Below are positions 49,184 to 50,095 of a stretch of 64,000 nucleotides of DNA, one piece after another. Both the position numbers and the translations under genes were made by a program. The DNA lies in NCBI GenBank assembly GCA_963737655.1, contig CAVTTN010000002.1:5152001-5216000 (forward strand). Direction: 5' to 3'. Source of the stretch: an uncultured Planctomycetota bacterium. Its GTDB lineage: Bacteria > Planctomycetota > Planctomycetia > Isosphaerales > Isosphaeraceae. Positions within the stretch are counted from its first letter, which is position 1. The number at the start of each line of letters is the position of its first letter. The notes beneath the pieces are model-generated. The model was not told the DNA's origin, did not search any database, and saw only the letters and a list, made by a program, of their open reading frames with translations.

Positions 49184-50095
49184 ATGTCCCTGACCGGCGA
49201 CTTCTTCCGCGAGGCCCATCAGTTCGCCAACGGCCATTCGCTCTATCCCTACGCCGATGCCGTCACCAACCAGGCGCACATGAAGAGCCTGGCGCTGGCC
49301 GACGGCTCCCAGTTCACCCAGGTCCAGGGAGACAACAAGGTCGCCTTTCTCGAAGTCCTGCCGGCCTCGCAGGTCAATCCCCTGCCCAGCGACATGACCT
49401 CGGTCTTCTCCTACACCAACGACGAGGCCCTGTGGGTCCTGCGGATCACGTACCAGAGGCCCAACAAGAAGGCGATCCCCTCGTACTTCCTCCCCTGGAG
49501 GAAGGACCACATGATGAGGATCAAGCTCAAGCCCAGCCCCAAGCACGCGACGACCGAGAAGAACAAGGTCGTCCAGCCCGACGTCTTCGTCACCGCGGCC
49601 CTCCAGGGCTGCTCGATCATGGTCAGCGGCGAGCCCGAGCAGCCGGTCGTCTACCACCTCAACGCCGCCAGCACCAAGGGCCCCCACGACGAGACCTTCG
49701 GCGGCAACGACGCCCAGTTCGACATCGCCGCCGCCAGCAAGATCCAGAAGATGAGGCAGATGTACGCCTCGGCCCGTTCGGAATTCCGCAAGGAAGGCCC
49801 CAAGACCGAGTTCGGGCTCCGGGGCAATCAGGACGCCTTCACCAGCTCGGGCGCCCACGTGAACGAATACATGCTCGGGGTGAAGCCCGGGGTCAACGCC
49901 ATGCTCCGCAACCAGTACGCCGGGGTGGGGAACCTCCACCAGGTCGCCCAGTTCGGCACCGTCTTCGGCGTCCGCAAGGACGGGACCTGGCGCTTCTACC
50001 GCCAGTCCCGCACCCGCCTGAGCTTCACCCCGCCCTCGGGCGGCGGGGACGTCCATCGCTGGGTCAATCCCGTCTGCGTGAGGTTCTGGCCCTGA
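49184..50095 (+). CDS. Putative CNF1/BLF1-like Cys-His deamidase (toxin-like), no signal peptide
   Basis: YFLPW, FVTAALQGCSIMV (Cys143), VVYHLNA (His158), GTVFGVRKDGTWRFYRQ; GAGG RBS and coding-like codon usage. Confidence 0.65.
   Translation: MSLTGDFFREAHQFANGHSLYPYADAVTNQAHMKSLALADGSQFTQVQGDNKVAFLEVLPASQVNPLPSDMTSVFSYTNDEALWVLRITYQRPNKKAIPSYFLPWRKDHMMRIKLKPSPKHATTEKNKVVQPDVFVTAALQGCSIMVSGEPEQPVVYHLNAASTKGPHDETFGGNDAQFDIAAASKIQKMRQMYASARSEFRKEGPKTEFGLRGNQDAFTSSGAHVNEYMLGVKPGVNAMLRNQYAGVGNLHQVAQFGTVFGVRKDGTWRFYRQSRTRLSFTPPSGGGDVHRWVNPVCVRFWP

What the first reader, a model, noticed from the sequence alone, without database searches (positions are those of the whole stretch)
49184..50095. Orphan CNF1/BLF1-like glutamine deamidase toxin candidate in a planctomycete
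Seen: a 303-aa ORF with no signal peptide or TM helix, standing alone on the + strand among minus-strand genes. It carries, in order, YFLPW ... FVTAALQGCSIMV ... VVYHLNA ... GTVFGV...WRFYRQ. Established: CNF1 and Burkholderia lethal factor 1 (BLF1) use an LSGC motif with a His about 12-15 residues later to deamidate Gln of eukaryotic targets (Rho GTPases, eIF4A). As I recall it, BLF1 also has an upstream WLPW and a C-terminal beta-hairpin of similar pattern. Inference: Cys143/His158 form the dyad of an uncharacterised deamidase effector, possibly anti-eukaryote (protist or fungal). No adjacent immunity or secretion gene is visible, which fits a non-self target and delivery in trans.
Basis: partly seen in the sequence, partly recalled or inferred. 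Interest (0 to 1): 0.8.

Follow-up and report, generated by a model that had tools for sequence, protein, structure and literature searches.

The report
T6SS-linked BLF1-like deamidase toxin family
This lone gene encodes an unannotated protein predicted to fold like the Burkholderia toxin BLF1, and its relatives repeatedly sit inside type VI secretion gene clusters, so it is likely an injected enzyme that would chemically alter a protein of neighbouring fungi or protists.

Summary
The ORF and motifs are real. It belongs to a large family with no Pfam or NCBIfam hit for the query: 688 clusters at 50% identity, Cys143 and His158 invariant in 150 of 150 aligned. The model (pLDDT 96.8) best matches the Mcf1 BLF1-like domain, BLF1 and CNF (Z 14.2, 11.7, 10.5), far above CheD, NTAN1 and YfiH. 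New here: relatives sit in or beside T6SS clusters in 7 of 64 independent metagenome groups (about 0.5 expected), and 40 of 41 carrier genomes tested encode TssC, against base rates of 11-34%. The host has two T6SS clusters. The gene itself is an orphan, and none of its 20-row subclade is T6SS-adjacent. No immunity partner recurs. Best reading: a T6SS-delivered, probably anti-eukaryote glutamine deamidase; substrate unknown, likely not eIF4A. Secretion, activity and target are untested. T6SS-secreted CNF-like effectors are known (CoVe1, Vpr01570); I found no paper on this family, and the scan had not noted it on other DNA.

The parts
49184..50095 (+). 303-aa BLF1/CNF1-fold Cys-His enzyme, predicted deamidase effector (33.8 kDa, pI 9.5)
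49484..49498 (+). YFLPW (101-105); Trp105 aligns with BLF1 Trp66, which contacts the substrate glutamine amide; aromatic in 150 of 150 (W 119, Y 30, F 1)
   Evidence: PMC8960835
49586..49624 (+). FVTAALQGCSIMV (135-147) with invariant Thr137 and predicted nucleophile Cys143 (codon 49610-49612), aligned to BLF1 LSGC/Cys94
49646..49666 (+). VVYHLNA (155-161) with invariant His158 (codon 49655-49657), 15 residues after the Cys in 149 of 150, on the partner strand of a predicted hairpin
49955..50005 (+). Conserved C-terminal beta-hairpin GTVFGV...WRFYRQ (G262 150/150, W269 149, F271 149, Q274 145)
49070..50108 (.). Approximate segment present here and absent at the same site in two genomes of the same genus (kinase-to-peptidase gap 1205 bp here, 176-177 bp there)

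Best explanation
The gene encodes a stand-alone protein predicted to have the BLF1/CNF1 deamidase fold, which is likely loaded as orphan cargo onto one of the host's type VI secretion systems and would deamidate a glutamine of a protein inside a neighbouring cell, most likely a fungus or protist. Shown: the ORF; the family; invariant Cys143/His158; sequence register with BLF1 Trp66 and Cys94; the host's T6SS gene set; the family's enrichment in T6SS clusters and T6SS-bearing genomes; no recurring immunity gene. Predicted: the fold. Inferred from BLF1/CNF1 chemistry: His158 pairs with the Cys143 thiolate, which attacks a Gln side-chain amide held by Trp105 and the LQGC backbone, and the thioester is hydrolysed to Glu. 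Inferred from context and precedent: T6SS export and a eukaryotic target. The substrate is unknown and likely not eIF4A, because the family is basic while BLF1 binds eIF4A with acidic residues. Rough odds: fold and dyad 0.95, active amide-modifying enzyme 0.85, T6SS cargo for this gene 0.7, eukaryotic target given export 0.8.
For: Fold: pLDDT 96.8, pTM 0.93. All 7 Foldseek hits at E<=0.001 are BLF1, Mcf1 or CNFy. Among 48,161 chains: Mcf1 Z 14.2 (rmsd 3.2, 177 aligned), BLF1 11.7 (3.4, 177), CNFy 10.5 (4.0, 207), CNF1 10.2 (3.8, 197), then CheD 4.9. Sequence: the family profile's top PDB hit is BLF1 (E 0.024), and 19 of 150 members match Pfam BLF1 at E<=1, best 2.4e-5. T6SS linkage: 9 of 73 metagenome loci, i.e. 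7 of 64 groups at 90% identity, against 0.51 expected from the T6SS-rich host genome. The T6SS genes were confirmed by Pfam, and ClpV was told from ClpB by tblastn. The linked loci lie at different cluster positions and in at least four subclades. TssC co-occurrence: 5 of 5 carriers vs 47 of 201 in the host's phylum; 3 of 4 vs 37 of 331 in Acidobacteriota; 32 of 32 vs 102 of 301 in Myxococcota. The host has TssA, B, C, E, F, G, K, ClpV, TssM-like genes, 2 Hcp and 2 VgrG. A small co-oriented downstream ORF was found in only 4 of 92 loci, one of them TssE. Precedent: CoVe1, an orphan CNF-like T6SS effector, is toxic to yeast and not to E. coli (PMC11371242).
Against: This gene lies about 0.9 Mb from the nearest T6SS gene. 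No row of its own 20-row subclade is T6SS-adjacent, nor is any of 33 genome-derived groups (most of those had only 1.5-kb flanks). 57 of 64 metagenome groups are not T6SS-adjacent. One close carrier, G453 (a MAG), has no TssC match. Co-occurrence is inflated by kinship and genome size, above all in Myxococcota, where 8 of the 32 carriers are weak partial hits. T6SS clusters also collect unrelated inserted DNA. The query alone hits no Pfam, NCBIfam or PDB sequence, and the best member stays below the BLF1 cut-off (24.2 vs 25 bits). The top structural match, the Mcf1 domain, lacks the catalytic Cys and is non-toxic in yeast (PMC10716152), so the fold alone does not imply a toxin. A review lists BLF1 itself among T2SS-associated substrates (PMC13391677).
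Confidence: 0.5

Rival explanations
1. It is a T6SS-delivered enzyme acting on bacteria. The producer would be safe because it lacks the target, because the enzyme acts only in another compartment, or because immunity is encoded elsewhere.
For: The T6SS link does not say which kingdom is hit. Carriers include predatory myxobacteria. The basic charge would suit nucleic-acid-bound targets in any cell.
Against: No recurring immunity neighbour, whereas antibacterial effectors are normally encoded beside immunity genes (PMC5666596; PMC10435454). The characterised CNF1-like toxins listed in PMC11253639 come from animal or plant pathogens and marine vibrios; the passages read report none as antibacterial.
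Confidence: 0.14
2. It is a non-exported enzyme that modifies the producer's own proteins, either as a regulatory deamidase (CheD- or NTAN1-like role) or as a T6SS accessory factor that modifies a secretion component.
For: No secretion marker domain. Mostly single-copy and strongly conserved. In-operon positions such as TagJ-[gene]-TssE fit an accessory gene as well as an effector. CheD and NTAN1 share the fold (PMC8960835). An earlier scan note describes a bacterial NTAN1-like enzyme of this superfamily.
Against: The structure is much closer to toxin domains (Z 10-14) than to CheD (4.9), NTAN1 (3.7) or YfiH (2.4). Distribution is very patchy: 0 of 60 relatives, 5 of 401 in the phylum. Most TssC-positive genomes lack it. 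Its position in clusters varies, and neighbours at orphan loci are unrelated housekeeping genes.
Confidence: 0.14
3. It is a BLF1-like anti-eukaryote deamidase that leaves the cell by a route other than T6SS (vesicles, lysis in a phagosome, T2SS-associated release), possibly acting on eIF4A as BLF1 does.
For: The query's own subclade shows no T6SS adjacency. BLF1 is also a stand-alone domain and is listed as T2SS-associated. One linked locus has an eCIS_core (DUF4157) neighbour.
Against: No signal-peptide-like stretch in 150 of 150. No eCIS sheath match in the host, where the control rang. The one HrcV/FlhA-type gene scores below the T3SS cut-off like flagellar controls. Carriers are almost all TssC-positive. 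BLF1's eIF4A interface is acidic whereas the query has net charge +9.
Confidence: 0.12
4. It has the same fold and delivery, but the Cys-His pair does other chemistry: transglutamination, Asn deamidation or proteolysis.
For: DNT and CNFx prefer transglutamination, set by residues near the active site (PMC11253639). The LSGC serine is replaced (Asn 55, Asp 41, Gln 31, Ser 12, Thr 10 of 150).
Against: The aromatic residue matching BLF1 Trp66, which binds the Gln amide, is kept in 150 of 150.
Confidence: 0.1

Closest known systems
Burkholderia lethal factor 1 (BLF1; Pfam PF17752; PDB 3TU8, 6RVU, 7PPZ)
   Same: Stand-alone domain; predicted beta-sandwich (Z 11.7, rmsd 3.4, 177 aligned); LPW and xxGC motifs in register with Trp66 and Cys94.
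   Different: 12-14% identity; 303 vs about 211 aa; Cys-His spacing 15 vs 12; LQGC vs LSGC; basic (pI 9.5) whereas BLF1 uses acidic patches on eIF4A; below the Pfam cut-off; BLF1 is listed as T2SS-associated.
Mcf1 activator-binding domain, Photorhabdus (PDB 8P50-8P52)
   Same: Best structural match (Z 14.2-14.4, rmsd 3.0-3.2, 177 aligned).
   Different: That domain lacks the catalytic Cys, is non-toxic in yeast and is part of a giant toxin (PMC10716152); the query keeps an invariant Cys and stands alone.
CNF1/CNFy catalytic domain (Pfam PF05785), including T6SS MIX-effector Vpr01570
   Same: Fold (Z 10.2-10.5); Cys-His spacing 15 as in CNF1 (Cys866 from PMC8960835; His881 recalled); T6SS delivery is shown for Vpr01570 (PMC5666596).
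   Different: No receptor, translocation, MIX, RHS or VgrG fusion; only 1 of 150 members touches PF05785 (E 0.084); Rho GTPase targeting not shown.
CoVe1 of Vibrio coralliilyticus T6SS2 (WP_006957348.1)
   Same: Closest functional precedent: orphan gene, no signal peptide, no immunity gene, CNF-like by HHpred, T6SS-secreted, toxic to yeast but not E. coli (PMC11371242).
   Different: 188 aa, 20.7 kDa vs 259-380 aa here. No Vibrio-named protein is among the listed hits (120 of 139 shown, most unnamed).
CheD, NTAN1, YfiH (housekeeping members of the fold)
   Same: Distant fold relation; Cys-His chemistry.
   Different: Z 4.9, 3.7 and 2.4; conserved housekeeping distribution (from my own knowledge), unlike this patchy family.

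Membership tests
CNF1/BLF1-like deamidase superfamily | CNF1-type beta-sandwich fold | tested here: met
   AF2 model pLDDT 96.8; Foldseek BLF1 E 1.3e-7; VIA Z 14.2/11.7/10.5/10.2 against 4.9 for the next family
CNF1/BLF1-like deamidase superfamily | Nucleophile Cys in an xxGC loop in register with BLF1 Cys94 | tested here: met
   Profile alignments to 3TU8/6RVU; Cys 150/150, Gly 149/150
CNF1/BLF1-like deamidase superfamily | Conserved His 12-15 residues after the Cys on the next strand | tested here: met
   His 150/150; spacing 15 in 149/150. It maps to BLF1 profile position 106-107 in 8 of 12 members, inferred from match ends; 3 matches end before the His and 1 is an outlier
CNF1/BLF1-like deamidase superfamily | Cys and His within hydrogen-bond distance in 3D | not testable with these tools
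   Model coordinates are not exposed; only the hairpin E144-149/E155-159 is seen
CNF1/BLF1-like deamidase superfamily | Gln deamidase or transglutaminase activity | not testable with these tools
   Needs a biochemical assay
BLF1 family proper (PF17752, eIF4A deamidase) | Score above the Pfam cut-off of 25 bits | tested here: not met
   Query has no hit; best member 24.2 bits
BLF1 family proper (PF17752, eIF4A deamidase) | Literal L-S-G-C motif | tested here: not met
   LQGC in the query; Ser in 12 of 150. BLF1 Ser92 contacts the substrate amide through its backbone NH, so the change may be tolerated
BLF1 family proper (PF17752, eIF4A deamidase) | Acidic surface complementary to eIF4A | tested here: inconclusive
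   Whole-protein net charge +9, family median pI 9.1; surface residues not mapped
CNF toxins (PF05785, AB-type) | PF05785 match and an N-terminal delivery module | tested here: not met
   303-aa single domain
CheD / NTAN1 / YfiH | Best structural match to these housekeeping enzymes | tested here: not met
   Listed, but at Z 4.9, 3.7 and 2.4
Anti-eukaryotic T6SS cargo effector | Host encodes a T6SS | tested here: met
   TssL only weak, TssJ not searched
Anti-eukaryotic T6SS cargo effector | No Sec signal and no adjacent immunity gene | tested here: met
   (hydropathy proxy)
Anti-eukaryotic T6SS cargo effector | Family members genetically linked to T6SS clusters | tested here: met
   7 of 64 groups vs 0.51 expected; Pfam-verified
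Anti-eukaryotic T6SS cargo effector | This gene itself linked to T6SS genes or fused to a marker domain (typical of, not required for, effectors) | tested here: not met
   Orphan locus about 0.9 Mb away; no Pfam domain. CoVe effectors are orphans too
Anti-eukaryotic T6SS cargo effector | T6SS-dependent secretion and toxicity to eukaryotic cells | not testable with these tools
   Needs experiments

The most novel reading that the evidence does not exclude
This is the largest known reservoir of BLF1-type enzymes: hundreds of unannotated stand-alone deamidases that planctomycetes, acidobacteria, myxobacteria and other free-living bacteria inject through T6SS into fungi or protist grazers, acting on a eukaryotic substrate other than eIF4A or Rho GTPases. 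BLF1 and the inactive Mcf1 domain would be offshoots of this environmental anti-predator arsenal.
Probability: 0.3. Interest if true: 0.82.

Novelty: new variant of a known kind. Interest (0 to 1): 0.6.

Why it matters
BLF1 has looked like a near-unique toxin; here it gains a large, unannotated sister family in free-living bacteria, with a candidate delivery route. If confirmed, it would be an anti-eukaryote T6SS effector class for phyla whose T6SS cargo is little studied. It would explain part of what these systems do against fungi and grazers, and point to a new deamidation target in eukaryotic cells. The claim is directly testable in yeast and in culturable non-pathogenic carriers such as Corallococcus, Cystobacter and Paludibaculum.

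Tried and rejected
Single-sequence searches found nothing: Pfam, PDB sequences; the 35-sequence profile also found nothing in PDB. NCBIfam and PADLOC gave no family matched by more than 1 of 150 members, so there is no support for an anti-phage role. No relatives in viral contigs, plasmids or viral structures. No paralog in the host. eCIS tube and eCIS_core searches of the host were blank but their controls were silent too (inconclusive); the sheath search was blank with a working control. A search for long fused forms (666-2000 aa) found none, which is weak evidence. A complex prediction of the protein with three copies of host Hcp returned 'no answer' (score 0.12). No sequencing run was listed for the locus. 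The N-terminal extension of the longer members matched no other protein in my loci or the host. The 11-bp direct repeat flanking the ORF is not a family feature and has about 0.7% background, so I do not treat it as a mobility mark. The A4 profile gave BLF1 E 0.0019, but it was enriched in members already matching Pfam BLF1, so I rely on the unbiased A2 value. The tree finished only in quick mode. Two key papers were not held (Ho 2018, Cruz-Migoni 2011).

Full report
Observation. Window 49184-50095 (+) is a 303-aa ORF. It has GC3 0.95, no hydrophobic helix (maximum 19-residue hydropathy 1.37) and all five motifs in the order given, with Cys143 and His158 as numbered. It lies between a divergent minus-strand HAMP histidine kinase and a convergent M48 peptidase whose stop is 13 nt away. 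Codon use is host-like (CAI 0.836, 91st percentile of 2725 long ORFs). In two of three genomes of the same genus the kinase and peptidase are neighbours with a 176-177 bp gap, against 1205 bp here; in the third they lie on different contigs. The gene was therefore gained here or lost there. It is single-copy in the host.

Family. The query has no Pfam, PDB-sequence or NCBIfam hit. A direct search gave 35 proteins including the query. Their profile found 688 clusters at 50% identity with E<=0.001, 391 with E<=1e-10. I aligned 150 of the 163 proteins of 250-380 aa among the 178 then held. Thr137, Cys143, His158 and Gly262 are invariant; position 105 is aromatic in all 150; none has an N-terminal hydrophobic stretch; median pI is 9.1 and the query's 9.5. 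Cys-His spacing is 15 in 149 of 150. Named carriers are Paludibaculum, Solibacteraceae, Bryobacterales, Corallococcus, Cystobacter and Gemmatimonadota, Sulfotelmatobacter, Meridianimarinicoccus and Chloroflexi, and a cyanobacterium; all named ones are 'hypothetical' or 'uncharacterized'. Distribution is patchy: 0 of 60 relatives with the narrow profile, 5 of 401 in the host's phylum, 2 of 331 Acidobacteriota, 32 of 301 Myxococcota, of which 8 are weak partial hits. Nine of 264 protein records exceed 385 aa, all through N-terminal extensions of about 70-235 aa.

Fold and active site. The 150-sequence profile's best PDB match is BLF1 (E 0.024). It aligns YxLPW with BLF1's LWLPW and FxTxxxGC with FFTYYLSGC. 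Counting along chain 3TU8 puts Trp105 on Trp66 and Cys143 on Cys94. In the BLF1-eIF4A structure, Trp66 and the Ser92/Cys94 backbone hold the target Gln339 amide, and Cys94-His106 form the ion pair (PMC8960835: abstract, introduction and results parts 1-2 read). Nineteen of 150 members match Pfam BLF1 at E<=1; the best reaches 24.2 bits, under the cut-off of 25. From match ends, the family His falls at BLF1 profile position 106-107 in 8 of 12 such members. AlphaFold2 gave pLDDT 96.8 and pTM 0.93, with Cys143 just before strand 144-149 and His158 on strand 155-159. Foldseek's 7 hits at E<=0.001 are BLF1 (3), Mcf1 (2) and CNFy (2); CNF1 follows at 1e-3, NTAN1 at 0.07 and CheD at 0.17. The independent wide search gave Mcf1 Z 14.2 (rmsd 3.2, 177 aligned), BLF1 11.7 (3.4, 177), CNFy 10.5 (4.0, 207), CNF1 10.2 (3.8, 197), CheD 4.9, NTAN1 3.7 and YfiH 2.4 (similar). 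The ESM Atlas's nearest named clusters carry PF05785 in 19% and 48% of members, a lead only. The Cys-His distance could not be measured.

T6SS link. I called genes heuristically around 110 non-duplicate loci. No neighbour family recurred across unrelated loci except T6SS genes and common housekeeping families. Pfam confirmed the T6SS genes, and tblastn separated ClpV from ClpB. The arrangements are: ClpV-[gene]-TPR/methyltransferase-VgrG-DUF4123-FHA (L064/L067); ClpV-[gene]-VgrG (L123); TssB-TssC-Hcp-TagJ-[gene]-TssE-TssF (L112/L084); ClpV-two orphans-[gene] (L079); ClpV-eCIS_core protein-[gene] (L115); divergent from TssB-TssC-Hcp-TagJ-TssA (L088); and convergent with TssB/C-like-TssM-TssL (L100). 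That is 9 of 73 metagenome loci, 7 of 64 groups at 90% identity and 7 of 43 at 60%. Placing the same flank lengths at random in the host, which has two T6SS clusters, gives 0.51 and 0.38 expected (rough Poisson P about 1e-6). Among 37 genome-derived loci (33 groups, mostly 1.5-kb flanks) none was adjacent (0.27 expected). A quick-mode tree puts the linked loci in at least four subclades of one large clade. The query sits in a separate 20-row clade (support 95) with none linked; at about 11% linkage and roughly eight independent groups, that is not surprising but gives no support either. Carriers almost always encode the sheath protein TssC: 5 of 5 from five families in the host's phylum vs 47 of 201; 3 of 4 Acidobacteriota vs 37 of 331, the miss being MAG G453; and 32 of 32 Myxococcota vs 102 of 301 (lists compared by eye). 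Kinship and genome size inflate these figures. The host has two T6SS clusters and two orphan VgrG islands, with TssA, B, C, E, F, G, K, ClpV, TssM-like genes, TagJ and two Hcp, the nearest about 0.9 Mb from this gene. Of three congeners lacking the gene, one has TssC; the other two are 71-77% complete. No eCIS sheath was found, and the single HrcV/FlhA-type gene scores like flagellar controls. A small co-oriented downstream ORF occurred in 4 of 92 loci with room for one, one being TssE, so no immunity partner is evident.

Mechanism. Most likely the protein is made in the cytoplasm without a signal peptide and loaded as unfused cargo on a T6SS. Inside a neighbouring cell, its Cys143-His158 pair would convert a Gln of a target protein to Glu. 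Lack of immunity suggests the target is absent from the producer, hence probably eukaryotic. The basic charge contrasts with BLF1's acidic eIF4A-binding patches, so a different substrate is likely. Fold is predicted; chemistry, export, loading route and target are inferred. Against over-reading: the best structural match, Mcf1's activator-binding domain, has lost its Cys and is non-toxic in yeast (PMC10716152, passages). CNF-type enzymes can transglutaminate (PMC11253639, passages). BLF1 is listed among T2SS-associated substrates (PMC13391677, passages).

Relation to what is known. It works like BLF1/CNF1 and passes the structural tests of that superfamily, but fails membership of Pfam BLF1 and CNF1. 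T6SS delivery of this chemistry has precedent: Vpr01570 (PMC5666596, passages), VgrG- and RHS-fused Tox-CNF (PMC3482391, passages), RIX deamidases (PMC10435454, passages), TecA (PMC13577199, passages) and above all CoVe1. CoVe1 is a 188-aa orphan CNF-like effector that is secreted by T6SS2 and kills yeast but not E. coli (PMC11371242: passages, one section, 12 of 15 supplements searched; its S1 Text was unreadable and may bear on CoVe1's relatives). I also read passages of PMC11297309 and PMC9635556. Nine literature searches showed no paper describing this family. The library lacks most subscription journals, and the Ho 2018 survey of CNF1-like domains was not held, so prior mention cannot be excluded. 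The scan had no look-alike finding and one different protein of the same superfamily.

Verdict. This is a new, large, unannotated variant of a known toxin kind with a family-level T6SS link. Confidence in the full mechanism for this gene is 0.5; interest 0.6.

Noticed in passing
window 47312-48903 (-): The neighbouring HAMP histidine kinase is split over two frames here but is one open frame of 563-568 aa in two congeners. Similar splits occur in a host TssC, TssE and TssK, which suggests assembly indels rather than true pseudogenes.
   Followed up: partly
window 49166-49176 and 50096-50106: An exact 11-bp direct repeat flanks the ORF, 7 nt before the start and right after the stop. It is not seen in relatives, about 0.7% of random window pairs do as well, and the word occurs 96 times in the genome.
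   Followed up: yes
L064:2967-5399 vs L067:6001-8433: The same gene reads as 313 aa followed by a separate TPR-methyltransferase in one contig and as an 810-aa fusion in the other; an assembly difference or a real read-through.
   Followed up: no
L079:356-2497; L082:1300-3296; L115:648-2384: Other orphan ORFs lie beside T6SS-linked family members: two unannotated 321- and 331-aa proteins after ClpV, a 312-aa orphan and a Peptidase_M91 protein, and an eCIS_core (DUF4157) protein. They are candidate further effectors.
   Followed up: partly
P0245, P0249-P0251, P0256, P0260-P0263: Longer family members carry a Pfam-less N-terminal extension of about 70-235 aa, possibly duplicated in the 560-aa forms; it might be a trafficking module.
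   Followed up: partly
L029, L053-L056 (Myxococcota): Shorter 190-230 aa proteins match only the LPW-to-GC part of the profile, and one weakly matches Pfam BLF1 (E 0.007). They are BLF1/CoVe1-sized and may be a sister family.
   Followed up: partly
L142:8794-13405 and L143:8304-16613 (own genome): Both orphan VgrG islands carry a DUF6931 gene next to VgrG; one is followed by an unannotated 445-aa ORF.
   Followed up: no
L135:10764-18687 (own genome): A fused TssB/TssC-like gene sits beside an Hsp70/MreB-like gene and a 988-aa orphan, away from the two T6SS clusters; a similar TssB/C-like gene neighbours homolog L100.
   Followed up: no
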